60,026 bases of DNA from the sequence record PV806339.1; one strand, given 5' to 3'. The stretch is from a phage. The position numbers were made by a program, and so were the translations under genes. Of this stretch, positions 35,223 to 50,846 are shown piece by piece. The notes below the pieces were generated by a model. That model was not told where the DNA came from. It saw nothing but the letters and a program-made list of their open reading frames with translations, and ran no database searches. Position 1 is the stretch's first letter; the number at the start of each line of letters is the position of its first letter.

Positions 35223-35223
35223 G

Positions 35224-36262: not shown

Positions 36263-36306
36263 GTTGCCCCCTAAAGTAAAAATCCCCGTTGTTGCCTTCG
36301 GGGATA

Positions 36307-36335
36307 ATATAGGTTATACACGCGACGTATGTCAA
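36307..36335 (-). promoter_or_regulatory. sigma70-like promoter with conserved extended spacer (- strand)
   Basis: On - strand: TTGACA (36335-36330), 17-nt spacer TACGTCGCGTGTATAAC, -10 CTATAT/TATATT. Confidence 0.55.
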
Positions 36336-36342
36336 ACAGTTT

Positions 36343-36855
36343 CTAAGACTTTCTTTTCCGGGCGTGCTCCAGTCGATCACCGTGGCCCTTCTCGACCATG
36401 AAATCGCGGGTCTGTTTGTGCAGGTTGGCGATCGTCTCCTTCGTTTTCCGCCAGCGCGCCACTAACCCTTCGCGCACTTCCCGTTCGCGGAACAGGACGG
36501 CCAAGTCCGTCGCGGTGATGTCGTACCCTTCGCACGCGGCCAAAACTCCGGCCTTGAATTCGTAGAACAGGCTTTGGATCTCCCGGAATTCGGCCTCGGT
36601 TACGATCTCGATATTGACCGTTTTCCCTTCACCGATGTCGTCCTCGGTAAACAGGCACCCGGCTTCGCCAATGGCGCGGCCATCGTCCTTCCGGTAGCGC
36701 GTATTCCCTACGATGATCTGCGTCGGCGTGGTGCGCTCTACGCGTCGTTTCACGGCGAAGGTTACTTCCGGGCTGTACCCGATACGAATGCTGTTACGCT
36801 CCAGTGTCATGTCGCCAGTTTCGAGGTGTCCGAATCTCAATTTTTTATCGGCCAT
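36343..36855 (-). CDS. hypothetical protein (170 aa)
   Basis: ORF. Confidence 0.5.
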   Translation of the reverse strand: MADKKLRFGHLETGDMTLERNSIRIGYSPEVTFAVKRRVERTTPTQIIVGNTRYRKDDGRAIGEAGCLFTEDDIGEGKTVNIEIVTEAEFREIQSLFYEFKAGVLAACEGYDITATDLAVLFREREVREGLVARWRKTKETIANLHKQTRDFMVEKGHGDRLEHARKRKS

Positions 36856-37091
36856 TCTGCGTATTCTCCCTTCGGTAATTCGTCAGTCACGTCGCGCTCG
36901 GCCCATTTCAGGAACGCTTCGCGGGTGCAACTTGGATAGTGTCGGCCAAAGCCTACGACCGGGCCGTCATACTGGATGTGCGTGGCACCGATGTACAGGA
37001 TGGTGCGGTCGTTCACCAGTCCGCTGCGGTTCTGCGGCCGTTTACCGCGATAGGTGCGGCCGACTTTAAGTTTTAACGCTTCATCGGCCAT
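36837..37091 (-). CDS. hypothetical protein (84 aa)
   Basis: ORF. Confidence 0.4.
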   Translation of the reverse strand: MADEALKLKVGRTYRGKRPQNRSGLVNDRTILYIGATHIQYDGPVVGFGRHYPSCTREAFLKWAERDVTDELPKGEYAEWPIKN

Positions 37092-37326
37092 CGGTGTCCA
37101 CCTCGACTTCGAACGTGCGCGGAACGGTCATGGTCAGCACGTCATTCTCGGTGAACGGTGACAGCGGTTCGTCGCCCGGCTGGAAGCGCAGCGTCACGCT
37201 GCCGACGTTGTGATACGTGATATAGCGAAGGCGGAACTGCTCGCCGAAGATGGTCGCGAGTACGCCCGGCTTAACGTCTCCTGCGGGAATTTTCATGGTC
37301 ATAGTCTCCAGTCTAACGGCTCCCAT
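37081..37326 (-). CDS. hypothetical protein (81 aa)
   Basis: ORF. Confidence 0.4.
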   Translation of the reverse strand: MGAVRLETMTMKIPAGDVKPGVLATIFGEQFRLRYITYHNVGSVTLRFQPGDEPLSPFTENDVLTMTVPRTFEVEVDTDGR

Positions 37327-37493
37327 TGGCCGTCTCGTTTGATGTAGCAGCCGCTTAACGGGCTGTATTTGGTTGGTAGTTCGGTCTGGACGCTGACGTC
37401 GTTACACCCGATCGCCGCGCCCACACGGCCAATAACAAACAGCACACCGCAGATAATCAATACAAACAGCGTTAGCGCAGCGATCTTCTTCAT
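37299..37493 (-). CDS. small membrane/secreted protein (64 aa)
   Basis: N-terminal hydrophobic segment KKIAALTLFVLIICGVLFVIG. Confidence 0.4.
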   Translation of the reverse strand: MKKIAALTLFVLIICGVLFVIGRVGAAIGCNDVSVQTELPTKYSPLSGCYIKRDGQWEPLDWRL

Positions 37494-37503
37494 GGTGGCC
37501 CCT

Positions 37504-38322
37504 TTATTCCTTCGGTGGATTTGATTGGTGGCGATTTAGCCAGATGACAATCCCGGCAGTATAATTGATCACGCCGAGCAACTCCCTAACCCTTTGGTCA
37601 TGCGTTGGCAGGTTGACGCCTTCTACGACCTTCTTGCACACCTGATAGACCAAGCCGAGCGGGCTACCGATCAGGTCGGAAATAGCGTTCATCGGCTGCT
37701 GGTGGAAAGGCAGGTCGTTTGCGTGGCGTTCCCGCCCTTTACCATACGCGGCTTGCGTCAGCGCATCATGCAGCACTTTGACTAATTCGGAATAATCGTT
37801 GCTGTCTTTGACGTCCCGGAATTCGTATTTCCATGACCGGGGGGCCGAAGGTGCCACGGCTTCCGGCGCGACGAGGGCTTCGTTAAGCGGCCAGCCCTGC
37901 GCGAAGGAGAACATGATGTAATTCATTGCGTCGATGTACTGATTCTCTTCGAGACAACGACGAATGGCGTCGGAACATTGCTTCGGCCAGTCCGGCTGCA
38001 TCCATCCCAATTCCAGTCCCGGGTTTTTGCGCTCGAACTGCACCAGACGGTCAAGCATGTAGCCGAAAGTCTTCTCGGCCTGTTCAACCGTTGGCGCGCT
38101 CAGTTTAGGGCGGCGCAGCACGATGACCGTCTCGGCGTCGGCGGCTTTCGGGATGGCGATCTGATTGTCCATCATGGAATTGATAAGTTCGAGAACGTGG
38201 TCGGTCGCGTCGTCGTCCGTTTCAAAGTCGTCCATGTCGAGGTTCAGTGCGTTCATCACTGAATTGCGGAAACGCTGCGCGGATGGCTTGCCAGCGTGCT
38301 TTTGTTTTGATGCGTCTACCAT
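37504..38322 (-). CDS. hypothetical protein (272 aa)
   Basis: ATG at 38322 preceded by leader hairpin and promoter. Confidence 0.5.
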   Translation of the reverse strand: MVDASKQKHAGKPSAQRFRNSVMNALNLDMDDFETDDDATDHVLELINSMMDNQIAIPKAADAETVIVLRRPKLSAPTVEQAEKTFGYMLDRLVQFERKNPGLELGWMQPDWPKQCSDAIRRCLEENQYIDAMNYIMFSFAQGWPLNEALVAPEAVAPSAPRSWKYEFRDVKDSNDYSELVKVLHDALTQAAYGKGRERHANDLPFHQQPMNAISDLIGSPLGLVYQVCKKVVEGVNLPTHDQRVRELLGVINYTAGIVIWLNRHQSNPPKE

Positions 38323-38361
38323 AATAAAAAACTCCCGTTGGTGGATTAACCTTCGGGAGTA

Positions 38362-38390
38362 ATATTAATTACACATGTCGCGTGTGTCAA
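38362..38390 (-). promoter_or_regulatory. sigma70-like promoter with conserved extended spacer (- strand)
   Basis: On - strand: TTGACA (38390-38385), spacer CACGCGACATGTGTAAT (17), -10 TAATAT (38367-38362). Confidence 0.55.
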
Positions 38391-38399
38391 ACGCTTTCT

Positions 38400-39086
38400 T
38401 TAAATCTCGTCCCACATCTTGATCCAGCGGTTCCGGATCTTGGCCGATACGTTAGCCAGTGGCGCGCCGATTTCCAGTAGCGTTTCACGGTCGATATACT
38501 CGTTGGGGTGAATGCGGTCACTCTCCGGGTCGAAGATGTGGATGGCCGCGCCGAACCCGGCTGACGTGATTTCGCTGCTGCCTTCCTTCGGCCGGAACCA
38601 GACTGGCGGTTCAAACCCGATGCGCCCTTTGATGAAGATGGTACGCGTGGCGATAGCGTCCGGCCACCAGCTTTCTGATGTCGCGGACTTGGTCAGCCAG
38701 ATGGTTCCCGCACCTTTGGCCCGTTCTTCGTCGGCCTTGCGCATGATGTGCGTCATCCCGGTCAGGTGATCTTTCCCGGCGCGCTTCTGGCTGTAAGGGG
38801 GGTTAGCGTAGGCCCAAACGCGGGTCTTCTGGTCGAACCCGTCGCTGGCGTGGATCTCGGCCAGACGTTTTGACCAGTCCTGCTTTAACGCATTGTCTTC
38901 GGCGGTGAAGAAGCGCTGACATTTGGCGTTCTGGCCGTCGGTGAACAGGTCAAGCACGATTGGCCCGTACAGCTTGTTAATCGCTTGAAACAGCCATTCC
39001 GGCGTACGCCATTGGTCGCCGATCATCTTTGGTTCGTGTTCGTCCATGTTTTTCATGGCGTTGAGTGCATCAACATACTGGCTCAT
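38400..39086 (-). CDS. phage-type N6-adenine DNA methyltransferase (228 aa)
   Basis: WRTPEWLF motif and catalytic NPPY (ANPPYS) characteristic of N6A methyltransferases. Confidence 0.7.
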   Translation of the reverse strand: MSQYVDALNAMKNMDEHEPKMIGDQWRTPEWLFQAINKLYGPIVLDLFTDGQNAKCQRFFTAEDNALKQDWSKRLAEIHASDGFDQKTRVWAYANPPYSQKRAGKDHLTGMTHIMRKADEERAKGAGTIWLTKSATSESWWPDAIATRTIFIKGRIGFEPPVWFRPKEGSSEITSAGFGAAIHIFDPESDRIHPNEYIDRETLLEIGAPLANVSAKIRNRWIKMWDEI

Positions 39087-40186
39087 TAAAACGTGTCTCC
39101 GTTAAGCAGGTCTTCGGCCTCGCGGTAGAAGGCTTCGTATTTGTCCTCCGACATCATTGTCAGCGAATGGACGCCTGCATATTTGCGGGTCAGATCGCTG
39201 AACGTGGACGCGCTCGCGAGGGAGTGGAGGCGGTTGATCATGTCTTTGACCATTTGCTGCGTGACCGTCTTCGGTGGCGGTGACAGCAGCAGGTTATCGC
39301 ACATCGCATGGATGAACGACGTTACTTGTGGCGGAAGCCCGACTACCAGATCTGCATCAATGCGATAGTGCGGGATTTCGAGGTATTCCGCCGCCTGTAA
39401 CGGGTATGTGTGGAAGGCGGACAGGACAACCATGCGAGCGGCCGTAAGGTCGATGGCCGCCAGTTCTTCCCATGCCGCGCGAACCGAGGCGGACTGTCGG
39501 GTGTACCGTACGTTATTCTGTAGTGACTTGATCGTGGCGCGCAGCTTAGTGATTTCCCGGTCGTGCTCGGTGTTATCGTCGGCGTGACGGCGGTGGGCCT
39601 CGGATAACTGGATTTGCAGACTGGTGACAGCGCTTTCAGCAGTATCGAGACGGCGGCCTTTGTCGTCCAGCGCTTCGCGTAGTGCAGCCAGTTCGCCCGG
39701 CGTGATGTTGGCGAGGCGCAGCGGTTCGAAGTCTTTCAGCGTCAGCGGGCCATCGCTGGTCATCTGTCCGGTCAGGCGCTGTATGTCCTGCATGGCGAGG
39801 CTTCCGGCCAGTTCGAGGCTGGTGGTGCCTGCAATCTTCGCGTATTTAGCGCGGGCGCGTACCGTTTCGAGGATGGTGCTCAGGATCTGCTGGCACTGCT
39901 CGCGCTCCCACTCGGTCACTTCGGCGGCCGTTGGCGTAACTGCGGACGGACGTTTAACCCGCGTCCAGTGAATGCGGATCTCCCGGGGCATCGCGTCACC
40001 GTCCACCTCGACTTCATCGACTGACTGGATGTTCCCTTCCGGAACGCCGCAGTTATCGAGAAGGTATTTATGCGCCACGCACAGGATATGATTCGGGGAT
40101 ATGCCGCCTTCCTGCTCGATAGCCATGACGAGGATGTCTTTCAGGCTTTTGTCGTCGGTGATGTAAGTGACTTTTGGTTCGCTCAT
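39086..40186 (-). CDS. hypothetical protein (366 aa), coiled-coil-rich
   Basis: ORF; ATGA overlap with upstream gene. Confidence 0.5.
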   Translation of the reverse strand: MSEPKVTYITDDKSLKDILVMAIEQEGGISPNHILCVAHKYLLDNCGVPEGNIQSVDEVEVDGDAMPREIRIHWTRVKRPSAVTPTAAEVTEWEREQCQQILSTILETVRARAKYAKIAGTTSLELAGSLAMQDIQRLTGQMTSDGPLTLKDFEPLRLANITPGELAALREALDDKGRRLDTAESAVTSLQIQLSEAHRRHADDNTEHDREITKLRATIKSLQNNVRYTRQSASVRAAWEELAAIDLTAARMVVLSAFHTYPLQAAEYLEIPHYRIDADLVVGLPPQVTSFIHAMCDNLLLSPPPKTVTQQMVKDMINRLHSLASASTFSDLTRKYAGVHSLTMMSEDKYEAFYREAEDLLNGDTF

Positions 40187-40788
40187 TTGGATACCTTTAA
40201 GATGTTAGAGAATTCAACGATGTTGACGATTTTGTGCTGGCGGCCGCTGTTCGATCTGGCGAGGCTGGCCGACTCCATCACGCGAGGATTCATTTCAACG
40301 CGCGGCGTGCGCCCGGTACCGTATTGATCCATGCTGCTCATGCGGTCAACGCTGATGCTGTACATCTGGCTGGCCGTCATCCAGTTACCCATCGTATTGA
40401 TGAAAAATTCCATCGCCTGCAATGCGTCGAGCGCATAGACCAACGTGGACGCGTTGTCCGTGTACAGCACGTACGCGCCGACGGACGGCACAACCTTATC
40501 GACGCCGCTCATGTACTGCTCGATCCATTCTGGCGGCACTGGCGGCACGGCCAGACGTTCCCCGGTAGCCGGGCTGCCGTACGGATAGGCGAAAGCCGGG
40601 CTGGACGACACGCGACGTCCGGTAGGCGTGGTCGTCGCCATTGCTTTCGGCGCGTCGGACTCCGGCGCGGTGCATGGGGGTGGGTCGATGTCATTCGCAT
40701 CCCATGTCTTCTGGCAGTCCCGGCAATAGAATTGGTCACTATGCTGCACGACTGATAAGTGGCTTCCGCCAGTGGCTTCGATTCTCAT
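40183..40788 (-). CDS. hypothetical protein (ORF to 40851; likely Met at 40788)
   Basis: ATGA overlap at 40785-40788; N-terminal CRDC Cys pair. Confidence 0.45.
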   Translation of the reverse strand: MRIEATGGSHLSVVQHSDQFYCRDCQKTWDANDIDPPPCTAPESDAPKAMATTTPTGRRVSSSPAFAYPYGSPATGERLAVPPVPPEWIEQYMSGVDKVVPSVGAYVLYTDNASTLVYALDALQAMEFFINTMGNWMTASQMYSISVDRMSSMDQYGTGRTPRVEMNPRVMESASLARSNSGRQHKIVNIVEFSNILKVSK

Positions 40789-41531
40789 ATCTCGACTTCC
40801 CCTTCGGTTAAAATGCGAAACGCGCCGCCGCCGACTTTCCAGCCCTGCCATACGTCGGCCAGAAGCGCCGCCCGGTACTTCCGGTGAAACACGTTATAAA
40901 TCATGTCCCAATTCTCACTCGGCAGGTCAGACGCGATACCGCCGCCCTCCCACGCCCAATCACGCGGCGACTGCGTCAGCCATTTCAGCGGAGGACGGGG
41001 GTAGGTGTACGGATTCGCCAGACCGCAGGCCACCAGCCCGCGTTTAATCCATGCACGTTGCCACCATAAATCGTGAACCGTCTTCCCGGCGATGAATTCT
41101 TCGTCCAGCATCGCGCACAGGATCGTCATGGCGGCCTTTTCTGCGTTCATGGGTACGCCAATGTCGTCCCAATCTTCCAGCGCCGCCCTGACGCCGTCAG
41201 CGCTGCCGTCGTCGTTGCTGGTGGATGAACGGTCATGCAGGATGACGTCGAACACCATGAACGGGAACACGACCTGTTCGCCGTTCCGCGTGTATTTCGG
41301 GTTAGGCTCGCTGAACATGGCCGAGTACAGGCGGCGGATGTGGTCTTCGAGATCCGGGACGAAGCCAGTCAGGTTTTCGGTGGTGTCGGCGTTAACGACT
41401 TCAAGGTCGGTTCCGTTGGTGCGGACAAGGCAGCGCGGCCCGTACGGCAGGGGGAACACGTACAGCACTTCTTTCCCGATCAACGCTTGGTTGAAAGGTA
41501 CGAATTTCATTACGTGGGTCTTCATCGGCAT
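40785..41531 (-). CDS. hypothetical protein (248 aa)
   Basis: ATG at 41531 with AAGGAG RBS and upstream promoter. Confidence 0.5.
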   Translation of the reverse strand: MPMKTHVMKFVPFNQALIGKEVLYVFPLPYGPRCLVRTNGTDLEVVNADTTENLTGFVPDLEDHIRRLYSAMFSEPNPKYTRNGEQVVFPFMVFDVILHDRSSTSNDDGSADGVRAALEDWDDIGVPMNAEKAAMTILCAMLDEEFIAGKTVHDLWWQRAWIKRGLVACGLANPYTYPRPPLKWLTQSPRDWAWEGGGIASDLPSENWDMIYNVFHRKYRAALLADVWQGWKVGGGAFRILTEGEVEI

Positions 41532-41553
41532 GACTCCTTTGTTATGGTACGGG

Positions 41554-41582
41554 AATATTAGTCGTACACGCGACGTACGTCA
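41554..41582 (-). promoter_or_regulatory. sigma70-like promoter with conserved extended spacer (- strand)
   Basis: On - strand: TTGACG (41582-41577), spacer TACGTCGCGTGTACGAC (17), -10 TAATAT (41559-41554). Confidence 0.55.
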
Positions 41583-41720
41583 ATAACTTTATTCGGGGCA
41601 AAAGAAAGCCCGCGTAAAGGGATTGCGGGCTTTTGGAAGGTGGCATCCGAAGATTACCACTGGCTTAAAGCGGACAACGCAGGAGCCGATAAGGAAGCAC
41701 TATGCCGAGTCCGCAGTTAA

Positions 41721-41996
41721 TCATATGTCGGGGTTACTGTAAATAAGATTCCAGTATTTGTACTCCTTCAAGTCCAGTTCGATGACGCATGGGTCATCCA
41801 GCGCGCTCAGGCAGGTGCCGTAGTCCTCGACAAAGACGCAGGAGGATTCCGGGTGATGCAGCAGGCGTACCCGGCGGTAGTTCAGGTGCCATTCCGGACT
41901 GAACACATGATCCTCCGGCTGGCGTATCAGCATGATCTGGCCTGTCGTTTTGACCTGCCAGTATTGGTCTACTTGGGGCGTGGCATAGGCTCCCAT
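41721..41996 (-). CDS. hypothetical protein (about 92 aa from Met at 41996; ORF extends to 42128)
   Basis: AAGGAG RBS before ATG at 41996, just downstream of previous stop. Confidence 0.4.
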   Translation of the reverse strand: MGAYATPQVDQYWQVKTTGQIMLIRQPEDHVFSPEWHLNYRRVRLLHHPESSCVFVEDYGTCLSALDDPCVIELDLKEYKYWNLIYSNPDI

Positions 41997-42000
41997 TTCG

Positions 42001-42234
42001 TTACTCCTTTTTATCCGCTTTGTCCCGGTAAACGCGGGTACCCATCTTCCCGTAGATCTGGTCTTGCAACGTGAACCGGATGGACAGGCGGATGTTAAGC
42101 CGATAGCCCATTCGACGCAGATAGCCAAGATCCTGCGGCTTCACGCCTTCGATAAAGAACGAATCGCCGTCCTTCATCCCGAGCAGAAGTTTTTCGTGAG
42201 TTTCACGCACGCTTTTGTCGGTAGTCGCGGCCAT
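42001..42234 (-). CDS. hypothetical protein (77 aa)
   Basis: ORF. Confidence 0.4.
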   Translation of the reverse strand: MAATTDKSVRETHEKLLLGMKDGDSFFIEGVKPQDLGYLRRMGYRLNIRLSIRFTLQDQIYGKMGTRVYRDKADKKE

Positions 42235-42236
42235 TG

Positions 42237-43313
42237 TTAAACCTCGTCGTCGTCTTCTTCGTCGTTCAGCGTTCCGGTGTACTCGACTACCTGCCCGGCC
42301 TCGTCCAGCACGCTGATCACCGCACGCAGGGACTTATCGAGTTGGAACAGGTTAGCCATCATGGTCAGGAACTGGCCGCCGTCGGTGCCGTAGCGTTCGA
42401 GCGTGGCGTCGTAGTTCGCATCAACGTCGGCCTCGCCGATGTGGATACCGGACAGGATGGCTTTGTCGGACAGGCGGAAGTACACGGTGTCGATGCCCGG
42501 GCATTGCGTATCGACTTCGAGATCCAGCGCGCGGACAGTCCAGTGACGTGACAGCAGGTCAACCACCGACTCGTCTTTGAAGATGTCCGTGTCCTTCATC
42601 TTGACGTCGTCGCCATCGTCGTGTTTCAGGTGGATAAACGCATCGCCCTTGATGCCGTCCTGCTGGCCGAGAACCGCGCGCTGCATTAACTGGCGCAGCT
42701 CATACTCGCTCGGCAGGAGGTGTTCGACGGGCCATGTGCCGAGCGCGGTACGGATCAGCGCGCTGCACTCTTCTGCCGTCTTCGCGCTCGACGTGAACAC
42801 GTACACGAACGGGGCGGACAGGATGACGTTGACGCGGGAAGGGCGGATAGGCGCGTGTTTCAGCATTTCCGCTTCCACGTCGTCCTTCATCTGCGCCCAA
42901 TCCTTGCGGTTCGGCTCCCAACCCTCGATCTCTTTCTCCCGCAACGCGGCCATGCGCTTCACGACTTCATTTCGTACGCTGACGCCGGGCAACACACGTT
43001 CGCGCTTCTCGATCTGGAAGACGATGGCGTTTGTTCCGGGGATGGCGAGGGCGAATTTACTTTCAACCTCTTCGCCGTACGCTGCAAAGCCCATTGTCTT
43101 GTAAGACGCCTCCGGCGGATCTGACACTTCATGCTTTTCGAGTGCATCGCTAAACGCTCCTTTCGCGAAAGCCGTTACGGCCTCTTCGTCAACGTTCGGC
43201 AGGTTCAGGATCAGGCGGTGCAGCGGCTTGACCTTCTCGTTACCGTCGTTGGCCGCGTCATACAGCGCGCCGAGGTGCAAGATAATGGCTTTCTCATAAC
43301 CCTTGATTTTCAT
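42237..43313 (-). CDS. recombination-associated RdgC-like protein (358 aa), ends ...EEDDDEV
   Basis: Length and several colinear segments resemble RdgC (e.g. ALGTWPVEHLLPSEYEL); identification tentative. Confidence 0.4.
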   Translation of the reverse strand: MKIKGYEKAIILHLGALYDAANDGNEKVKPLHRLILNLPNVDEEAVTAFAKGAFSDALEKHEVSDPPEASYKTMGFAAYGEEVESKFALAIPGTNAIVFQIEKRERVLPGVSVRNEVVKRMAALREKEIEGWEPNRKDWAQMKDDVEAEMLKHAPIRPSRVNVILSAPFVYVFTSSAKTAEECSALIRTALGTWPVEHLLPSEYELRQLMQRAVLGQQDGIKGDAFIHLKHDDGDDVKMKDTDIFKDESVVDLLSRHWTVRALDLEVDTQCPGIDTVYFRLSDKAILSGIHIGEADVDANYDATLERYGTDGGQFLTMMANLFQLDKSLRAVISVLDEAGQVVEYTGTLNDEEDDDEV

Positions 43314-43656
43314 GCTCTATGGCTCCTACGTTAATTAAATTGGCTGGTGCTCCGTGGTACATCGACTGCGCAGCATGGAACATCGCGGCGCGTAGTGCTT
43401 CTTTGGCCGCCCGAAGGCCCGCCATTGATTCAGCGTACTGGTCGCTGACCGTGTTATACGCCGCCTCGTCGTTGTCCAGTGTGGCGAGGTCAAGCATTTT
43501 GGTACTGTGGGCCTGCACTTCGTCTTCCATGTCCTTGAAAAACGTCTCAAGGGCAGACAGTTTGCAGGTGATTTGGTCTAACCGGACTTTGCGCAGTTCT
43601 TGGAACTGCACGCGAACGAATTCAATGCCTTCCACCAGCCACCTCCACGACGACAT
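43294..43656 (-). CDS. hypothetical protein (120 aa)
   Basis: ORF. Confidence 0.45.
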   Translation of the reverse strand: MSSWRWLVEGIEFVRVQFQELRKVRLDQITCKLSALETFFKDMEDEVQAHSTKMLDLATLDNDEAAYNTVSDQYAESMAGLRAAKEALRAAMFHAAQSMYHGAPANLINVGAIEHENQGL

Positions 43657-43957
43657 TCTGCACTTCCGGGCATGGCATATTCGTCATGGCCCAATCCAGA
43701 AACTTCACGATGTACATGCGCATGGCCGTGCATTCATCCGCGCCGCGAGCCTCGCCGTGCTTCGCGATGGCCGGGTCGCCAGACTGATAGAAGGTCACGC
43801 GGTGATTCGTGGCCGCCGACACCTTGATCCCGGTGTGCGTGGCATGGATGGTCACGCTGTAGATCCGCTCGATAGCGCGGAACGCCGGGACGACGTCGAT
43901 GCGGCCTTTCGGGTGCATGGCGTTGTTCACCATCAACGCGGTATTAGTCGGCTGCAT
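43622..43957 (-). CDS. hypothetical protein (111 aa)
   Basis: ORF. Confidence 0.4.
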   Translation of the reverse strand: MQPTNTALMVNNAMHPKGRIDVVPAFRAIERIYSVTIHATHTGIKVSAATNHRVTFYQSGDPAIAKHGEARGADECTAMRMYIVKFLDWAMTNMPCPEVQNVVVEVAGGRH

Positions 43958-44384
43958 TCAGAGGTTCCTCTTTCAGACGGTAGGTGATGGTGTCCGGGCG
44001 AGTCGCGTCGATTTCCAGTTCAGGCATCTGCCCGGTGATCAGGCGGGACGGCGTAAGGACTGCGGTGCGCAGGCCATTCTCGAACATGATGTTGGCCGCC
44101 GTGACCAGCGAAATACTTTCGATGTGGTCTTGGGTCTGGTCGAGGCGGCGCTGTAACAGTTCGACCTTCTCCGCGTTCGTGTCCGGAATGTCGAAGGCAG
44201 ACCGCAAGCCATCGATCAACGCAATAGCGTCCGCGCGGGTCAGGGGGGTAACGATCTCGGTGTCGCCGTTGTCCTTCTCGATGTAGATCTCGCCGTCCTT
44301 CTGGCCGGGCTTCTTGTAGATAAAGGCCGTGCGGGTGATGTCGCGTACCGGACTCAGTTCAATAGGGTGGTGCGTGGTTTTCAT
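43944..44384 (-). CDS. hypothetical protein (146 aa)
   Basis: ORF. Confidence 0.45.
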   Translation of the reverse strand: MKTTHHPIELSPVRDITRTAFIYKKPGQKDGEIYIEKDNGDTEIVTPLTRADAIALIDGLRSAFDIPDTNAEKVELLQRRLDQTQDHIESISLVTAANIMFENGLRTAVLTPSRLITGQMPELEIDATRPDTITYRLKEEPLNAAD

Positions 44385-44455
44385 CGGTGTGCGTCCTATA
44401 GGGTGTCAGGTCAAAAGGGTGGTACGCCATTTTTCAGGCGTGCCGTCCTACGTTT

Positions 44456-44827
44456 TTAAACTTCGTCGTCGTCCGAAACGTCGGTGTCAGTACAGGTCAC
44501 AACGGCCTGAATGAACATGCGGCCAGACGGGTAAGTCACCAGCGCGGATTCCATGCTGAACCGTTGGCCGTGGTGTTTCATGGCGTTCCGGATGGAAGAA
44601 TTAAGGCTGGCCCGCATCTTCGCTTTGAGGGCATTGGCCTCGTCCTGTACCTGCGAAAGCGTACGGTCAAGCGGGAGTTCTTGGGACAGGGTGTACACGC
44701 CACCGACTTCCAGCGCAATGAGGTTCCCCACGACGCTGTACACGCGCACGCGTGACGGCAGTTCAACATCCGGCTCGGTCGTCATCATTGCGCCAGTCAG
44801 TTCGGCCGGGCTTAGTTCTTTGCTCAT
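44456..44827 (-). CDS. hypothetical protein (123 aa), ends ...VSDDDEV
   Basis: First gene of - strand early operon; GGAG RBS; promoter upstream. Confidence 0.5.
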   Translation of the reverse strand: MSKELSPAELTGAMMTTEPDVELPSRVRVYSVVGNLIALEVGGVYTLSQELPLDRTLSQVQDEANALKAKMRASLNSSIRNAMKHHGQRFSMESALVTYPSGRMFIQAVVTCTDTDVSDDDEV

Positions 44828-44869
44828 TGGGATGGCTCCAGTTGGTTCGTTAAATGTTACGTTCGGAGA

Positions 44870-44898
44870 ACAATAGTTCTACACGCGACGTATGTCAA
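44870..44898 (-). promoter_or_regulatory. sigma70-like promoter with conserved extended spacer (- strand)
   Basis: On - strand: TTGACA (44898-44893), spacer TACGTCGCGTGTAGAAC (17), -10 TATTGT (44875-44870). Confidence 0.55.
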
Positions 44899-44951
44899 TT
44901 CATTTCATCCAGTAATTATGATGACCGGGTGACACTCCAGTTTAGTTTCAG

Positions 44952-45187
44952 CCGGATGACTTTTTGAAGTAAGGCGGGTGGCCGGGCCGCCGGGCTTCAA
45001 CCGGGTAACTTTTTCAAGTAAGCGCGGAACGTCGCAACGACAACCGGACAGGTTTTTCAAGTAAGCCCGTCAGCCGGGTGAAATTGCCCCGACGCTGGTG
45101 GACAAAACCGTCAGCCGGGTAGGTTTTTGAAGTAAGAACTGGCCGCGTCGTTCAAAATTTTTCAACCGGGTAACTTTTTCAAGTAAG
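44952..45187. repeat. array of five 22-bp direct repeats CCGG(G/A)T(A/G)(A/G)(C/G)TTTTT(C/G)AAGTAAG
   Basis: Copies at 44952-44973, 45001-45022, 45044-45065, 45115-45136, 45166-45187; copies 2 and 5 identical. Confidence 0.85.
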
Positions 45188-45493
45188 CCCGTCGGGAATT
45201 TTTATAGAGAAAGTCAGGCCCGGCGCGGCCTGCCGTTGTGGGCGGTTGTCGTTTTTGGCGGGATTTCGTACAAATCGTTATAAATCAACGGCTTAACCTA
45301 TGCGCCGATCGGCCTGTTTTGGCCCGGTTGGCGTCGGTTTTTCGTATAGAGTTCAAGTGTTTAGGACGTGGCGCGGTGTGCCGTTTGGCGGTGTGCCGGG
45401 GCGGGGGCCGTGGGGCGCGGCGGTGCAATGCGGCCCGGCGTGGCGATCGGTGGCGCTTTTATGTGCGGTTAATCAAATAATATGAAAAAAGAT

Positions 45494-45522
45494 TTGACGC
45501 ACGCCGCGTATATCATTTACAT
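45494..45522 (+). promoter_or_regulatory. sigma70-like promoter with conserved extended spacer (+ strand)
   Basis: TTGACG (45494-45499), spacer CACGCCGCGTATATCAT (17), -10 TTACAT/TACATT; followed by CCCTTCGGGGG hairpin. Confidence 0.5.
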
Positions 45523-45587
45523 TTAAATTCCCTTCGGGGGACGGGGCAAAAAGTCCCGGCGATAAACTAACTTTATGAGGTGTCACG

Positions 45588-45848
45588 ATGGAAAAGGTAT
45601 ACAACGCGATCAAGGGTCAGACGTTGCAACATTGGTTATCAATCGTTATTAAGCGCGACGAAAGCGGCACGGCAACGGTTGAACTGCATAGCACGATCCA
45701 CGTTAACCGGGTGAGCACGCTTTCTTTTTCATGGGGGAAGGAATTCACCGACGCCGATATTTTAAATGACAATGATTTATTACGCGTTATTTATCAGAAG
45801 TACGGCCGCGAAATTTTCACCGCCGAATATACCCGCGATTTCAAATAA
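45588..45848 (+). CDS. hypothetical early protein (86 aa)
   Basis: ORF downstream of promoter. Confidence 0.5.
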   Translation: MEKVYNAIKGQTLQHWLSIVIKRDESGTATVELHSTIHVNRVSTLSFSWGKEFTDADILNDNDLLRVIYQKYGREIFTAEYTRDFK

Positions 45849-45861
45849 GAGGATCAACACA

Positions 45862-46401
45862 ATGCAAACTATCATTACCAAATATTCTAACGGTTCAATT
45901 ATGGCTAAATGCTGGAATGGTTGGACGCGTTCACAGTATGACGCTGAATTAAATAGCGAACAAAATCACCGCGCGGCCGCTGAAAAGTTGATCGCTAAAC
46001 TCAATGCGAATAAATCAGTTAGTTGGGGGATTGTTGCTAGTGCGCCATCCGTGCCGGGCGTGCGTGGTACGGATAATGGCTGGACGTTTATGATCGGTTA
46101 TATTCCAGAAGTCGCGCCGCTGGATATGTCGATCACTGTTAAATTCTGCCCGGCAACAAATAAAGGCCCGGCGTATATGCGCGTTTATTCGTGGTTAGTG
46201 CCGCGCGGGATCAAGGTTAACTATTCGCCACGCGTCGCCGACGGGTCAGACATTCAAGCCAATGCACGATACGCGGCCGGGATCATGTTAGAGCGAATTA
46301 ATGAAATATGCCGCGAGGGGGGCGATCTTTTAGGCTGGAAAATTGCGGACTATGTGCAATTGTACGACGGCGATCGCCTGTTCACACTGAAAGCTAATTA
46401 A
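45862..46401 (+). CDS. hypothetical early protein (about 180 aa; start refined from ORF 45766)
   Basis: RBS AAGAGG before ATG at 45862. Confidence 0.5.
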   Translation: MQTIITKYSNGSIMAKCWNGWTRSQYDAELNSEQNHRAAAEKLIAKLNANKSVSWGIVASAPSVPGVRGTDNGWTFMIGYIPEVAPLDMSITVKFCPATNKGPAYMRVYSWLVPRGIKVNYSPRVADGSDIQANARYAAGIMLERINEICREGGDLLGWKIADYVQLYDGDRLFTLKAN

Positions 46402-46415
46402 TCCGGGGGCGCGTC

Positions 46416-46616
46416 ATGTTAATGGCTATTATCTTGATCGGTTATTCAATTATTGCGGCTGTTATATATCGTGACGCGCGGGCGGTGTGGCGTCGCTGTA
46501 AGGTTGAGCGCCGTTATTCTTTCGGGCGTAAAACTTTTTATTTACGCGAGCGTAAAACAGGCCGTTTGATCGGCTGTTCAAATAATTTTTTCACTCTTCT
46601 GTTACAAGGGGCTTAA
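46416..46616 (+). CDS. small membrane protein (66 aa)
   Basis: N-terminal TM LMAIILIGYSIIAAVIY. Confidence 0.4.
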   Translation: MLMAIILIGYSIIAAVIYRDARAVWRRCKVERRYSFGRKTFYLRERKTGRLIGCSNNFFTLLLQGA

Positions 46617-46618
46617 TC

Positions 46619-47101
46619 ATGAATCTTAATTCTATCAATAAAGATCAACGTTTATACGTCATGAAAGCGGGCGCGGGCTTTACCTGCTACGGGTTCGACG
46701 TGCTGAACAATAAAGCGCGCCGGGCGTTGGAATGGTTAAAGCGTCACGGCCGCGCGGCTGAAATGCTGTTAGGGGCAAAGGGGATCGACGTCATCGCGCT
46801 GGATATTCCCGCCCGCGTTGGTACTAAAAAACATTTTGCCGCGTGCAATAAGGTATTCGACGCCGCGCGGATCTATTCCATCGCGAGCGGCAATAAATGC
46901 GATGCGGAATATACACCGCAATTAATCGGCCTTGAGGGTCGCCGCGTGGAAGTGGTGGACGCATACGGGGAAACGCGCCGCTTTACCGTGGGGCGGTCAT
47001 CCGGCTGGATGCCTTGCCACCTTGAGATCGCCCGCCGCGATTCCAACGGCGGCCCGGCGGTGACGGGCGCGCCTTTTAAATCCGTATCCGTAATTAACTA
47101 A
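46619..47101 (+). CDS. hypothetical early protein (160 aa)
   Basis: ORF. Confidence 0.5.
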   Translation: MNLNSINKDQRLYVMKAGAGFTCYGFDVLNNKARRALEWLKRHGRAAEMLLGAKGIDVIALDIPARVGTKKHFAACNKVFDAARIYSIASGNKCDAEYTPQLIGLEGRRVEVVDAYGETRRFTVGRSSGWMPCHLEIARRDSNGGPAVTGAPFKSVSVIN

Positions 47102-47112
47102 CCGGGGGATCT

Positions 47113-47316
47113 ATGGGTCATATGTATGGCGTTATCTTGTCAAATGGTACGCATTGCGACACGTCAACCACGGAAAAGGGCGCGAAAAATTACGCCACGC
47201 GCCACGGTTACAAGGAAGTAAGCCGCCGCCTGAATTGCGGCTATGACGTCGAAATCGTAGCACATCGCGCCGGGTCGAAATGGATCGACGGGCCTGCTAA
47301 CCACTCAACCAAATAA
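47113..47316 (+). CDS. hypothetical early protein (67 aa)
   Basis: RBS GGGGGAT. Confidence 0.4.
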   Translation: MGHMYGVILSNGTHCDTSTTEKGAKNYATRHGYKEVSRRLNCGYDVEIVAHRAGSKWIDGPANHSTK

Positions 47317-47326
47317 GGGGATCACC

Positions 47327-47875
47327 ATGAAACTAAATATCACCGCGCCGGGCCTGTTCTTTAATCGTAGCGGCGACCGCGTCACCGTGGATCAAATCGT
47401 TTTAGAGAATAGCGCCGGGGCCGTCGTGTCATTCCCTGTTAAGGGCCGGATCTGGAAAATGTACCGGGGCGCTTATCGTCCGCGTGAGTTCAAGATCTGG
47501 ACGGCGGCGGGCAAGTTTTACGCGGGCGAACAATCCCGATCGCCGTGGGATATTGTCGGCGAGGTTGTCGCGGACGATGTGCGCCCGGTGTACTGGCAAG
47601 ATCTGACCGATGTCCAGAAAGCGCAAGCCGCCGCCAAATATCACAACGGGGAAGGCACGCCGGAAGATTATTTCACCTATACGCCGGATCAATTCATCCT
47701 GATTAATGGTGACGTTTACGATCTGGACGCCGACGCGGCCGTTTATGAGGTGGAAGGGTTAAAAGGTCATGTGCGCATACTGGAAAGCTCAAAGGCGGAC
47801 GGGGCCGCGTTGGCGGTGCAATGTGTGGACGGCTGGCAAGTAATAAGCGTTTACCGCGTACAGGTGGCATCATGA
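47327..47875 (+). CDS. hypothetical early protein (182 aa)
   Basis: RBS AAGGGGAT. Confidence 0.5.
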   Translation: MKLNITAPGLFFNRSGDRVTVDQIVLENSAGAVVSFPVKGRIWKMYRGAYRPREFKIWTAAGKFYAGEQSRSPWDIVGEVVADDVRPVYWQDLTDVQKAQAAAKYHNGEGTPEDYFTYTPDQFILINGDVYDLDADAAVYEVEGLKGHVRILESSKADGAALAVQCVDGWQVISVYRVQVAS

Positions 47876-48093
47876 ATAAAACCGGATTTTCGGGGAACGC
47901 CGCAAGGGCCGCGATCAAGTTTACCGCGTGCGGCGCGATCGTGGCGTTTATCGGGGCGGCGGTTATTTTCGGCGACAACGTCGGGCCATATAAAGTGTTT
48001 TTGTATACCGTCGCCGGGGGCGTATGTGTGCGCCTGATTTGGCCGACTCAAGACGAGGGCGACGCGCTTTTAAAACGGGATGACGGCCCGTAA
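47872..48093 (+). CDS. small membrane protein (about 73 aa; start refined from ORF 47821)
   Basis: ATGA overlap; hydrophobic segments AIKFTACGAIVAFIGAAVIFG and VFLYTVAGGVCV. Confidence 0.4.
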   Translation: MNKTGFSGNAARAAIKFTACGAIVAFIGAAVIFGDNVGPYKVFLYTVAGGVCVRLIWPTQDEGDALLKRDDGP

Positions 48094-48127
48094 TGGTGAC
48101 GCGGCCGACGATTAAAGAGAAAAGTTA

Positions 48128-48157
48128 TTGACGCACGCCGCGTATATCATCTATTAT
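48128..48157 (+). promoter_or_regulatory. sigma70-like promoter with conserved extended spacer (+ strand)
   Basis: TTGACG (48128-48133), spacer CACGCCGCGTATATCAT (17), -10 CTATTA/TATTAT; followed by CCCTTCGGGGG hairpin. Confidence 0.55.
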
Positions 48158-48218
48158 TAAATTCCCTTCGGGGGCCGGGGGCAATGGGGCCGACGGTTAT
48201 CAAAACAGGTACATAAAA

Positions 48219-49388: not shown

Positions 49389-49398
49389 GGGGATCGCG

Positions 49399-50544: not shown

Positions 50545-50613
50545 AACCGAATTTTCGGGGAACGCCGCACGATCCCTTTTAACCTGTTTTGACATATTCC
50601 CCATGTATCAAAG

Positions 50614-50637
50614 GCCGCCTATCCGGGCGGCTTTTTT
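50614..50637 (+). terminator. Rho-independent terminator ending the + strand early cluster
   Basis: Stem GCCGCC / GGCGGC with loop tatccg followed by TTTTTT. Confidence 0.7.
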
Positions 50638-50648: not shown

Positions 50649-50846
50649 GATATACGCGGCGTGCGTTGGTGTGCCGTGTATCGGGCCTATGGTGCGCCGC
50701 TGTAGTTGATATACGCGGCGTGCGTATGGCGGCCCGTCCTGCTTTCTTCCTTCCTGATATACACGACGTGCATCAATGCGGCCTTATGTGCGCGCTATGC
50801 CGTATGGCGGCCCGCTATGGTGCTGCATGATATACGCGGCGTGCGT
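50649..50846. repeat. four copies of the promoter-core motif in reverse orientation (GATATACGCGGCGTGCGT)
   Basis: Copies at 50649-50666, 50708-50725, 50755-50775 (variant), 50829-50846; reverse complement of the spacer core of the 45494 and 48128 promoters; no matching -10 on the - strand. Confidence 0.8.

What the first reader, a model, noticed from the sequence alone, without database searches (positions are those of the whole stretch)
36307..48157. Family of six sigma70-like promoters with a near-identical spacer and conserved start region
Six promoters share -35 TTGAC(A/G), a conserved 17-nt spacer yACGyCGCGTrTAnnn, a -10 TAnTAT-like hexamer, and a conserved TCCCG/CTCCG start region: - strand at 36335, 38390, 41582, 44898 and + strand at 45494, 48128. 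Ordinary sigma70 promoters do not conserve spacer sequence, so the GC-rich spacer core is probably recognised by a phage factor (activator, repressor or sigma appropriator) or sets a timing class. The promoters at 54931 and 55049 lack this spacer, suggesting at least two regulatory classes.
Basis: seen in the sequence. Interest (0 to 1): 0.65.

Follow-up and report, generated by a model that had tools for sequence, protein, structure and literature searches.

The report
Operator-bearing early promoters of Chi-like phage
Six strong host-type promoters of a Chi-like Salmonella phage each carry the same short palindromic protein-binding site between their two promoter boxes, with four extra copies beside the genome end. 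This layout is conserved across the phage family and points to an unidentified phage regulator, probably a repressor, that controls early transcription.

Summary
The window is a complete, circularly permuted Chi-like phage genome (Chivirus), with cos at 51084.

Five promoters match TTGACR-yACGyCGCGTrTA exactly, and 38390 is a divergent sixth member. There are 10 matches against 0.22 expected by chance.

The conserved spacer is the inside of an imperfect 17-bp palindrome, ACAyACG-N3-CGTrTGT. Its left arm is the ACA of the -35 hexamer and its centre lies near -24.

The six promoters are orthologous in Enc34, RedJac and Klebsiella phage Soft. Spacer nt 1-13 are as conserved as the -10 hexamer, while the flanks have diverged. 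More distant relatives (JS26, Aeromonas A18P4, Achromobacter phiAxp-2) have a palindrome at the same centre with other half-sites.

This fits an operator for a phage-encoded dimeric DNA-binding protein, most simply a shut-off repressor. The binder is unproven. The Cro/C1-like gp3 is the best candidate.

The 'TCCCG start region' at 36335 and 38390 is the 5' arm of a terminator hairpin that overlaps the start site.

The element is uncharacterised, but it is of a known kind.

The parts
36306..36335 (-). Promoter P36335 (TTGACA, 17/18 nt, CTATAT/TATATT). Embedded 17-bp operator at 36316-36332. Drives the gp46-to-gp41 block.
38362..38390 (-). Promoter P38390 (TTGACA, 17 nt, TAATAT). Divergent operator ACACACG-CGA-CATGTGT at 38371-38387. 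Drives gp51-gp47.
41555..41583 (-). Promoter P41583 (TTGACG, 17 nt, TAATAT). Operator at 41564-41580. Drives gp55-gp52.
44870..44898 (-). Promoter P44898 (TTGACA, 17 nt, TATTGT). Operator at 44879-44895. First leftward ('middle') operon, gp62-gp56.
45494..45523 (+). Promoter P45494 (TTGACG, 17/18 nt, TTACAT/TACATT). Operator at 45497-45513. First rightward ('early') operon, gp64-gp70.
48128..48157 (+). Promoter P48128 (TTGACG, 18 nt, TATTAT). Operator at 48131-48147. Second rightward operon, gp71-gp75.
50650..50846 (-). Array of four promoter-less operator copies at 50650-50666, 50709-50725, 50757-50773 (variant) and 50830-50846. They carry the rightward-promoter version of the core, lie 240-430 bp left of cos, and are spaced 59, 48 and 73 bp apart.
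   Evidence: equivalent arrays in Enc34, RedJac and (weaker) Soft
38326..38359 (-). Hairpin CTCCCG...CGGGAG plus a U-run directly after the -10 of P38390. Its 5' arm is the 'start region'. Inferred to be the terminator of the upstream operon, which transcripts starting at P38390 escape.
   Evidence: also conserved in Enc34, RedJac and Soft
36278..36305 (-). Hairpin ATCCCCG...CGGGGAT plus a U-run directly after the -10 of P36335. Same arrangement as at P38390.
45528..45559 (+). 5' leader of the P45494 transcript: CCCUUCGGGG hairpin followed by a second G/C hairpin (CGGGGC-AAAAA-GUCCCG).
   Evidence: similar leaders in JS26 and A18P4
48162..48196 (+). 5' leader of the P48128 transcript: CCCUUCGGG hairpin plus a second G/C hairpin.
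50610..50637 (+). Intrinsic terminator ending the rightward early operon, immediately before the operator array.
51084..51095 (+). cos overhang sequence GGTGCGCAGAGC. This is the physical genome end, so the array sits at the right chromosome end.
   Evidence: cos sequence from PMC4342425
54607..54888 (-). gp3, 93 aa, Cro/C1-like HTH protein. It is the only recognisable DNA-binding regulator conserved in every genus that has the operator, and is therefore the candidate binder (unproven).
51697..51984 (+). gp1, XRE-family HTH protein. It is not conserved outside Chivirus, so it is unlikely to be the binder.

Best explanation
**What it is.** Each of the six promoters is a near-consensus host sigma-70 promoter. 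Built into it is a 17-bp imperfect palindrome, ACAyACG-N3-CGTrTGT. The left arm of the palindrome begins inside the -35 hexamer (TTG-ACA). The symmetry centre is the 12th nucleotide from the start of the -35, at about -24.

**How it probably works.** I read this as an operator for a phage-encoded dimeric DNA-binding protein. Host RNA polymerase can use these promoters unaided as soon as the DNA enters. Once the protein accumulates, it occupies -32 to -16, competes with sigma region 4 and the spacer contacts, and shuts the rightward (early) and leftward (middle) operons off.

**The array.** The four promoter-less copies beside cos bind the same protein. They may act as auxiliary or cooperative sites, as a sink that sharpens the switch, or as a block to read-through across cos.

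**The two core versions.** The leftward promoters carry TACGTCGCGTGTA. The rightward promoters and the array carry CACGCCGCGTATATCA. The two versions could give different affinities and so different timing.

**What is shown.**
- The sequence family exists and is far more frequent than chance.
- It is symmetric and sits in a fixed register in the promoter.
- It is under purifying selection within and between genera.
- Half-sites are lineage-specific.
- Promoter-less copies exist.

**What is inferred.** That a protein binds, that it is phage-encoded, that it represses, and that it is gp3.
For: **Real and non-random.** 10 matches against 0.22 expected. The motif gives the top over-represented 11-mers of the genome.

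**Dyad symmetry.** In 18 promoters of three genera, the best symmetry centre among all those tried is nt 12, with 66% complementary pairs against 50% or less elsewhere. The window's six promoters score 3-6 of 9 pairs, against a mean of 2.3 for 160 other TTGACN sites.

**Independent confirmation of the centre.** Promoters not used to choose the centre also give nt 12 as their best centre:
- Soft;
- JS26 middle promoters, GACAkGC-N5-GCmTGTC;
- Aeromonas A18P4, with five identical spacers, GACACC-N7-GGTGTC;
- Achromobacter phiAxp-2, where the -35 is TTGACT and the mirror arm is AGTC instead of TGTC.

**Selection between genera.** Between orthologous promoters of Chivirus, Enchivirus and Redjacvirus, identity is:
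- 0.67 for spacer nt 1-13;
- 0.64 for the -10 hexamer;
- 0.38-0.42 for the flanks (information profile).

**Selection within Chivirus.** The 13-nt core is essentially invariant in five relatives, while bases immediately beside it vary. This holds at the promoter-less sites too.

**Promoter-less copies near cos.** They are conserved as a feature in Enc34 (3 copies), RedJac (3) and Soft (weak), and they carry the rightward-promoter version of the core. JS26 has three end-proximal repeats that share TCGGGCTAT, and 13 of 20 bases, with its own early-promoter spacer.

**Unaided use by host polymerase.** The -35 hexamers are at consensus, the spacing is 17-18 nt, and there is an A-tract at -42 to -40. 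Occupancy of the spacer is therefore most simply inhibitory.

**Timing in a relative.** In phage JS26 the syntenic blocks are early (5 min) and middle (20 min). The replication block, which holds the gp3 orthologue, is middle-late and classed essential (bioRxiv 10.64898/2025.12.19.695335; PMC8754663).

**gp3 as candidate.**
- It is conserved at 52-58% identity in all four Chi-like genera, with positional orthologues in JS26 and A18P4.
- Its orthologues give consistent sub-threshold Cro/C1-type HTH hits over residues about 30-65.
- A low-confidence model (pLDDT 64) has XRE/Cro/434-repressor folds as its top, non-significant, matches.
- The presumed recognition helix is similar among the genera that share the operator and different in JS26 and A18P4.
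Against: - No binding data exist, and no transcription start or time-course data exist for this phage.
- The palindrome is imperfect. The leftward promoters of this window score only 3-5 of 9 pairs.
- gp3's own promoter region has no copy of the operator. That is unusual for a Cro-type autoregulator.
- gp3's link to the operator is no stronger than shared phylogeny would give.
- gp3 has no significant Pfam, PDB-sequence or Foldseek hit.
- The role of the cos-proximal array is not explained by simple repression.
- Aeromonas phage A18P4 shows no such array in the regions read.
- The class of promoters that carries the palindrome differs between genera: early plus middle in Chi-like phages, middle in JS26, and the early-syntenic block in A18P4. 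More than one regulator may therefore be involved.
Confidence: 0.5

Rival explanations
1. The palindrome is a positive or timing element. A phage early protein binds the spacer and is needed to activate or re-programme polymerase at these promoters. This would resemble a MerR-type spacer activator or sigma appropriation.
For: - The site is centred at about -24, where MerR-family operators sit (established knowledge).
- In JS26 the promoters that carry the equivalent palindrome drive genes classed as middle (20 min), not early.
Against: - Spacers are 17-18 nt, not the 19-20 nt that MerR-type activation needs.
- The -35 hexamers are at consensus, unlike T4 middle promoters.
- In this phage and in A18P4 the element also sits in the block syntenic with the earliest genes, which must fire before any phage protein exists.
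- No MerR, MotA, AsiA or sigma-like protein was found among the early proteins scanned.
Confidence: 0.12
2. A host transcription factor binds the element, letting the phage read the state of its (motile) host. CtrA sites in pili- and flagellotropic phages of Alphaproteobacteria, and Spo0A boxes in phi29, work this way.
For: - There is precedent for clustered host-regulator sites in promoters of flagellotropic phages (PMC9437464).
- The same half-site is kept in phages of Salmonella, Hafnia, Providencia and Klebsiella.
- No convincing phage binder has been identified.
Against: - Half-sites follow phage phylogeny, not host phylogeny. JS26, which also infects a member of the Enterobacterales, has a different half-site. 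Phages of the distant host Providencia and of non-flagellated Klebsiella keep the Chi-type site.
- I could not match the consensus to any enterobacterial regulator site I know. This is from memory and was not tested.
Confidence: 0.12
3. The array and the promoter sites are recognised by a packaging or genome-end protein (for example the small terminase subunit or an end-binding protein). Promoter control would then be a side effect or second job of that protein.
For: - 3-4 copies lie 240-480 bp from cos in four genera.
- They are interleaved with eight same-strand TATGG repeats, which look like a second binding array.
- JS26 has its own end-proximal repeats related to its early-promoter spacer.
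Against: - If packaging runs as in lambda, terminase recognition sites are expected on the other side of cos. That side has its own GTTACAA repeat array.
- The early end is inferred to be injected first, and so packaged last.
- I know of no precedent for a terminase subunit acting as a general repressor.
- A18P4 has the promoter palindrome but showed no such array.
Confidence: 0.08
4. No dedicated factor is involved. The similarity reflects repeated promoter cassettes kept alike by duplication and gene conversion (like the PeSL promoter cassettes of T4-type phages), or a spacer that tunes polymerase binding or supercoiling response directly.
For: - The two rightward promoters share about 60 nt, including the leader.
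- In one relative (L004), one rightward promoter and all four array copies share the same T-to-C change at the base next to the core, which suggests concerted evolution.
- Five A18P4 promoters have identical 17-nt spacers.
Against: - Between genera the flanks have diverged to 38-42% identity while the spacer core stays at 67%. Recent copying cannot explain that.
- The element is symmetric, keeps its register, and changes half-site by lineage.
- Copies without a -35 or -10 are conserved.
Confidence: 0.08
5. The palindrome acts at the RNA level. In transcripts reading through from the upstream operon it forms a short hairpin, serving as a processing or stabilising site.
For: The leftward operons lie in series, so read-through RNA would contain the palindromes. 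Two of these junctions do carry genuine hairpin terminators.
Against: - The stems are only about 5 bp with a 3-nt loop.
- The register is fixed relative to the -35 rather than to any gene end.
- The array copies lie beyond a strong terminator.
- No Rfam family matches.
Confidence: 0.04

Closest known systems
Lambdoid operators within PR/PL (lambda OR1/OL1, phage 434 OR2) bound by CI/Cro-type HTH dimers
   Same: - A 14-17-bp partly symmetric site lies inside the core of a strong sigma-70 promoter, between or over the -35 and -10.
- The central bases are variable.
- Several copies share a half-site.
- The expected action is occlusion of polymerase.
- The candidate binder gp3 has a Cro/C1-like HTH signature.
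   Different: - The phage is lytic, with no immunity region.
- The operators are not clustered next to the regulator gene. They sit one per promoter in six operons spread over 12 kb, always in the same register and sharing the ACA of the -35.
- A promoter-less array lies beside cos.
- The binder is unidentified.
Dispersed multi-operator phage regulons: P1 C1 operators, mycobacteriophage L5/L1 'stoperators', phiC31 conserved inverted repeats (recalled from the literature; L1 example in PMC1934351)
   Same: One short motif is repeated about ten times over the genome. Some copies are in promoters and some are not, and the motif defines a regulon of one phage protein.
   Different: - Those systems belong to temperate phages and maintain lysogeny.
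- P1 and L5 sites are asymmetric, and L5 sites act as orientation-dependent elongation blocks.
- Here the sites are symmetric, sit at a fixed promoter position, and the phage family is virulent (PMC4342425).
MerR-family spacer operators
   Same: A dyad centred at about -24, starting right after or inside the -35 hexamer.
   Different: MerR promoters have 19-20-bp spacers and need DNA distortion for activation. Here the spacers are 17-18 bp, and no MerR-like protein was detected.
Host-regulator sites in flagellotropic or pilitropic phage promoters (CtrA 'lytic deferment', PMC9437464) and Spo0A boxes of phi29
   Same: In a phage that uses a cell appendage as receptor, a regulator's sites are concentrated in the promoters of one genome region.
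   Different: Those sites match a known host factor. Here no host factor is matched, and the half-site changes with phage lineage rather than with host.
Lambda Q-type late promoters (Q-binding element between -35 and -10, terminator downstream)
   Same: A specific DNA element lies in the spacer of a constitutive promoter, and a hairpin plus U-run lies just downstream at two of the six promoters.
   Different: - The hairpin overlaps the predicted start site, so the promoter's own transcripts should lack its 5' arm.
- Four of the six promoters have no such terminator.
- No Q-like protein was found.
- These are early/middle operons, not late ones.
PeSL promoter-stem-loop cassettes of T4-type phages (recalled; see also PMC2988022 for T4 mobile elements)
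   Same: Repeated early-promoter units with an adjacent stem-loop are scattered through the early region.
   Different: PeSLs are explained by recombination and shuffling, and no operator function is proposed for them. Here the conserved part is a symmetric spacer element, which is also found without a promoter.

Membership tests
Sigma-70 (housekeeping) promoter | -35 hexamer close to TTGACA and -10 hexamer close to TATAAT (A at position 2, T at position 6), 17 +/- 1 nt apart | tested here: met
   All six sites match 9-11 of 12 positions with 17-18-nt spacing. The total count of such matches in the region is no higher than in shuffles, so the hexamers alone prove nothing.
Sigma-70 (housekeeping) promoter | Placed in a non-coding gap upstream of a co-oriented gene block | tested here: met
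   Each site precedes a same-strand operon. The same six positions are occupied in Enc34 and RedJac, and in Soft by four leftward promoters plus two rightward ones with a weaker -35.
Sigma-70 (housekeeping) promoter | Transcription start mapped 6-8 nt downstream of the -10 | not testable with these tools
   No 5'-end data exist for this phage. RNA-seq exists only for the relative JS26 and has no start-site mapping.
Repressor operator embedded in a promoter (lambdoid type) | Dyad symmetry compatible with a dimeric HTH protein | tested here: met
   The best centre is nt 12, with 66% complementary pairs in 18 promoters. Four independent promoter sets give the same centre. The window family scores 3-6 of 9 pairs against a background mean of 2.3. 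The symmetry is imperfect.
Repressor operator embedded in a promoter (lambdoid type) | Overlaps core promoter elements, so that binding excludes polymerase | tested here: met
   The operator spans the last three bases of the -35 to about -16 in all six promoters.
Repressor operator embedded in a promoter (lambdoid type) | Cognate regulator gene identified and adjacent to, or regulated by, the operators | tested here: not met
   No regulator gene is adjacent. The only conserved HTH protein, gp3, lies 6-18 kb away, and no operator copy is found at its own promoter.
Repressor operator embedded in a promoter (lambdoid type) | Protein binding and repression demonstrated | not testable with these tools
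   This needs gel shift, footprinting or reporter assays.
Dispersed operator regulon of temperate phages (P1 C1, L5 stoperators, phiC31 CIR) | One motif in many dispersed copies, some not at promoters | tested here: met
   Six promoter copies plus four promoter-less copies.
Dispersed operator regulon of temperate phages (P1 C1, L5 stoperators, phiC31 CIR) | Belongs to a temperate phage with an immunity repressor that maintains lysogeny | tested here: not met
   Chi is described as lytic (PMC4342425). No CI-type repressor or integrase was detected among the early proteins scanned. Claims of lysogeny genes in PMC9783114 rest on annotation only.
MerR-type activator operator | Over-long 19-20-bp spacer | tested here: not met
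   Spacers are 17-18 bp.
MerR-type activator operator | MerR-family protein encoded | tested here: not met
   No MerR hit in Pfam or PHROG scans of about 30 early/middle proteins.
T4-type sigma appropriation (MotA/AsiA middle promoters) | The -35 element is replaced by an activator box at about -30 | tested here: not met
   The -35 is consensus TTGACA/G in all six promoters.
Lambda Q-type antitermination promoter | Q-binding element in the spacer, plus a promoter-proximal pause signal, plus a downstream terminator that needs Q to be passed | tested here: inconclusive
   A spacer element is present. A terminator-like hairpin is found at only two of the six promoters and overlaps the predicted start. 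A pause element was not examined. No Q-like protein was detected.
Iteron-type replication origin (considered for the cos-proximal array) | Regularly phased direct repeats next to an AT-rich unwinding region and an initiator gene | tested here: not met
   Spacings are 59, 48 and 73 bp, and 119/120 and 82/97 bp in other genera. They are not phased. A better origin candidate is the five-iteron array at 44961-45190.

The most novel reading that the evidence does not exclude
The promoter-less copies at the first-injected chromosome end may form a functional 'promoter-core decoy' array that works together with the promoter operators. In this reading one phage protein, made after entry or carried with the DNA, loads on the array beside cos and on every early and middle promoter. 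That would couple genome-end events (entry, circularisation, protection or packaging) to a genome-wide switch in transcription. The array would set the threshold or timing of the early-to-middle transition. No such link between a genome-end array and the promoters has been described for tailed phages, as far as I could find.
Probability: 0.15. Interest if true: 0.7.

Novelty: new member of a known kind. Interest (0 to 1): 0.5.

Why it matters
Chi-like phages (Casjensviridae) are classic flagellotropic phages and are being developed as biocontrol and therapy agents. Almost nothing is known about how they time gene expression. Most early genes are unannotated, and the genome papers I could read do not mention promoters.

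This element gives three things:
- a concrete map of the six early and middle transcription units;
- a defined 17-bp site that can be used directly as bait to fish out the regulator;
- a family-wide rule: a palindrome centred on nt 12 of the promoter, sharing the GAC(A/T) of the -35, with lineage-specific inner bases. This rule predicts operator specificity in other genera.

The promoters are also compact, strong and probably repressible parts for phage engineering. The terminator-overlapping-start arrangement is a neat way to insulate tandem operons.

Tried and rejected
**gp1 XRE as binder.** Rejected. It has no homologue in Enc34, RedJac or Soft.

**gp70 as binder.** A Soft homologue is annotated 'putative DNA binding'. 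Rejected, because the sequence looks like a membrane protein and has no family hit.

**JS26 gp30 (wHTH) and the A18P4 'GntR' protein as leads to a Chi homologue.** No homologue was found in the window.

**The GGTACC inverted repeat in the gp3/gp4 gap as gp3's own operator.** It is window-specific and is not conserved in RedJac or Soft, so it proves nothing either way.

**gp3 structure.** Only two database homologues were found. The AlphaFold model reached pLDDT 64, and the Foldseek hits were all XRE/Cro-like but with E around 1. This is suggestive only.

**Rfam scan of 33000-56000.** No match.

**IMG/VR search with gp71.** It returned only four close relatives, so the GenBank phage records were used instead.

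**Pectobacterium phage MA11.** No promoters were found with my pattern, and the record is partial.

**Extra motif hits inside genes.** Hits at 6812 in the protease gene and at 37755 are conserved in Enc34, but they lie in conserved coding sequence. They were treated as probable by-products of coding constraint.

**Literature.** Searches for an earlier description of these promoters or operators found none in the held library. The Enc34 genome paper could not be read.

Full report
**What the window is.** The region 44000-52000 is 93-96% identical to Salmonella phage Chi and its relatives, with 126 matching phage records. The published 12-base cos overhang of Chi, GGTGCGCAGAGC (PMC4342425), occurs once, at 51084. 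The window is therefore a complete, circularly permuted Chi-like genome.
- Structural genes run rightward from window position 1.
- A leftward block (Chi gp62 to gp41) occupies about 33600-44830.
- A rightward block (gp63 to gp75) occupies 45300-50544 and ends at the right chromosome end.
- The replication module (gp1-gp10) starts just after cos.

**The observation.** The consensus TTGACRYACGYCGCGTRTA matches five sites exactly: 36335-, 41583-, 44898-, 45494+ and 48128+. With up to three mismatches it matches ten sites, where shuffles give 0.22. The sixth site, 38390-, has a different spacer (CACGCGACATGTGTAAT) but belongs to the family at the level described below. All six are top sigma-70-type matches and each precedes a co-oriented operon. 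Motif 11-mers are the most repeated 11-mers in the genome. The two promoters of the replication module (54959-, 55049+) lack the element.

Four more copies of the rightward version of the core lie at 50650-50846. Three read ACGCACGCCGCGTATATCA exactly and one is a variant. They sit between the terminator that ends the rightward operon (50610-50637) and cos, at 240-430 bp from the chromosome end. They have no usable -35 (CCAACG, CATACG, TTGATG) and no -10.

**Anatomy.** I collected the six syntenic promoters from Hafnia phage Enc34 (Enchivirus) and Providencia phage RedJac (Redjacvirus). Aligning all 18 promoters shows information content of 0.8-1.7 bits at spacer positions 1-13, an A-tract at -42 to -40, and little else outside the hexamers. 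Scanning every possible symmetry centre gives one clear optimum: the 12th nucleotide from the first T of the -35 hexamer, with 66% complementary pairs. The element is therefore an imperfect 17-bp palindrome, ACAyACG-N3-CGTrTGT. Its left arm begins with the ACA of TTGACA and its centre lies at about -24. In the window alone the symmetry is moderate, at 3-6 of 9 pairs against a background mean of 2.3 for 160 other TTGACN sites. A weight matrix made from the spacer alone scores the sites on both strands, as expected for a palindrome.

**Comparative evidence.**
- *Between genera.* Between orthologous promoters of the three genera, identity is 0.94 for the -35, 0.67 for spacer nt 1-13, 0.64 for the -10, and only 0.38-0.42 for the upstream 40 nt, the last four spacer bases and the next 31 nt.
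- *Within Chivirus.* In Chi and four metagenomic relatives, the 13-nt core is essentially invariant at every promoter and every array site, while the adjoining bases vary freely.
- *Klebsiella phage Soft (Yonseivirus).* It keeps the architecture with GCACACG-N3-CGTGTGC and an AT-rich centre.
- *More distant family members.* These were not used to define the centre, yet they show a palindrome at exactly the same centre with other half-sites:
  - Serratia phage JS26 middle promoters, GACAkGC-N5-GCmTGTC;
  - Aeromonas phage A18P4, with five identical spacers, GACACC-N7-GGTGTC;
  - Achromobacter phage phiAxp-2, where the -35 is TTGACT and the mirror arm is AGTC rather than TGTC.
- *The array.* The promoter-less array near cos recurs in Enc34 (three copies, two of them identical to the cores of its two rightward promoters), in RedJac (three copies) and, degenerate, in Soft. 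JS26 has three repeats 160-280 bp from its early end that share 13 of 20 bases with its own, different, early-promoter spacer.

**Interpretation.** Five features argue for a trans-acting dimeric DNA-binding protein and against a property of RNA polymerase or recent copying:
- a symmetric element;
- a fixed register inside the promoter;
- purifying selection;
- conserved copies that have no promoter function;
- half-sites that change with phage lineage.

Half-sites follow phage phylogeny rather than host phylogeny. Providencia and Klebsiella phages share the Chi-type site, while JS26, from another member of the Enterobacterales, does not. I therefore favour a phage-encoded protein over a host factor, although host-regulator sites in flagellotropic phages have precedent (PMC9437464).

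The promoters have consensus -35 hexamers, optimal spacing and an upstream A-tract, so host polymerase should use them unaided. The simplest action of a protein sitting from -32 to -16 is repression. In JS26, RNA-seq assigns the syntenic blocks to early (5 min) and middle (20 min) classes. The replication block is middle-late, and transposon data suggest the early end is injected first (PMC8754663; bioRxiv 10.64898/2025.12.19.695335). A regulator made from the last-entering, later-expressed module could then shut the early and middle operons off. This sequence of events is inferred, not shown.

**Who binds.**
It has no homologue in Enc34, RedJac or Soft, so it cannot explain a conserved operator.
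- *gp3.* Among about 30 early, middle and replication-module proteins scanned, the only other regulator-like protein is gp3 (54607-54888). It has 52-58% identical orthologues in all four Chi-like genera, and positional orthologues next to the primase gene in JS26, or near it in A18P4.
- *gp3 fold evidence.* Its orthologues give consistent but sub-threshold Cro/C1-type HTH matches. A low-confidence model has XRE, Cro and 434-repressor folds as its best, non-significant, matches.
- *gp3 recognition helix.* The presumed helix is similar in the genera that share the operator and different in JS26 and A18P4. Phylogeny alone would predict the same, and gp3's own promoter lacks the operator.

gp3 is a candidate, no more. 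I put it at roughly one chance in four.

**The 'conserved start region'.** At P38390 and P36335 the bases after the -10 (CTCCCG..., ATCCCCG...) are the 5' arm of a hairpin followed by a U-run, with folding energies of -15.9 and -11.4 kcal/mol. RNA beginning at the G or A that lies 7-8 nt after the -10 cannot form it. The same arrangement is present in Enc34, RedJac and Soft. I infer a terminator for the upstream operon that is placed so that the next promoter's own transcripts escape it. At the two rightward promoters the start region is a leader with a CCCUUCGGGG hairpin and a second G/C hairpin. Related leaders follow the early promoters of JS26 and A18P4. No Rfam family matches.

**Comparison with known systems.**
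- *Closest in how it works:* lambdoid operators inside PR/PL.
- *Closest in layout:* the dispersed operator regulons of P1, L5 and phiC31.
- *How it differs from these:* the phage family is lytic, each operon has one operator in a fixed register sharing the -35, and an array lies next to cos.
- *Families that fail a defining test:* MerR-type control (spacer length), sigma appropriation (the -35 is intact), and an iteron origin (no phasing).
- *Inconclusive:* Q-type antitermination. The spacer element is present, but hairpins occur at only two of the six promoters, they overlap the predicted start, and no Q-like protein was found.

I found no earlier description of these promoters or operators in the papers available.

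**Verdict.** The feature is real and under selection. It is best read as a family-wide promoter-embedded operator regulon with an unidentified regulator. It is a new member of a known kind and of moderate interest. The cos-proximal array is the part that could turn out to be unusual.

Noticed in passing
window 44961-45190: Five same-strand iterons, (CCGGGTrr)nTTTTT[C/G]AAGTAAG, start 43-71 bp apart in the gap between the divergent promoters P44898 and P45494. The core TACTTGAAAAAG recurs in the same gap in Klebsiella phage Soft (four copies) and JS26 (six copies). This is a better replication-origin or regulator-array candidate than the cos-proximal sites.
   Followed up: partly
window 50688-50948: Eight copies of TATGG, all on the + strand, lie between and after the operator copies and before cos. 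That is 8 of the 32 in the whole genome within 444 bp, with none on the other strand. TATGG-type repeats also fill the same region in Enc34 and RedJac. They may be a packaging or end-recognition array.
   Followed up: partly
window 51309-51565: GTTACAA/TTGTAAC repeats (seven copies, both orientations) lie just inside the left chromosome end, upstream of gp1. RedJac has a different repeat (GTAAGAAGT) and a different ORF at the same place. This array may therefore pair with the genus-specific gp1-position protein, or with terminase.
   Followed up: partly
window 51621-51663: A perfect 16-bp palindrome, ATAACAAATTTGTTAT, lies upstream of an extended -10 (TGcTATAAT, 51655-51663) in front of the XRE gene gp1. 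It looks like gp1's own operator.
   Followed up: no
window 54968-55030: A 13-bp inverted repeat, TTATTCGGGTACC ... GGTACCCGAATAA, with arms 35 bp apart, lies in the gp3/gp4 divergent promoter gap. It is unique in the genome and only partly conserved in other genera.
   Followed up: partly
window 54898-54920 and 55083-55100: The leaders of the gp3 and gp4 transcripts contain conserved CA/CG-rich runs (ACACGCGCACATTACG; CAACACGACACGAC), present in all four Chi-like genera. They resemble operator half-sites (ACAyACG) but not the full palindrome.
   Followed up: partly
window 54946-54959: The -35 of promoter P54959 is part of a perfect inverted repeat, TTGACA-GA-TGTCAA.
   Followed up: no
window 6800-6812 and 37743-37755: Two operator-like hits lie inside genes (prohead protease; gp51) and are conserved at the same positions in Enc34. 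They are probably by-products of conserved coding sequence, but internal binding sites are not excluded.
   Followed up: partly
L012 (JS26) about 741-6350: A 22-nt leader, TAAACCGAACGCTTAGGAGTTC (including the ribosome-binding site), is repeated four to five times in front of genes of the early block.
   Followed up: no
L004 (FSL SP-030-like relative) 7870-12451: The base next to the core (TATATCA to TATACCA) has changed in one rightward promoter and in all four array copies together. This suggests concerted evolution among these sites.
   Followed up: partly
window 45528-45559, 48162-48196; L012; L014: Early-transcript leaders with a UUCG-type hairpin and/or a GGGCAA-containing hairpin are conserved from Chi-like phages to JS26 and Aeromonas phage A18P4. 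This hints at an RNA-level function such as 5'-end stabilisation or a cis-acting signal.
   Followed up: partly
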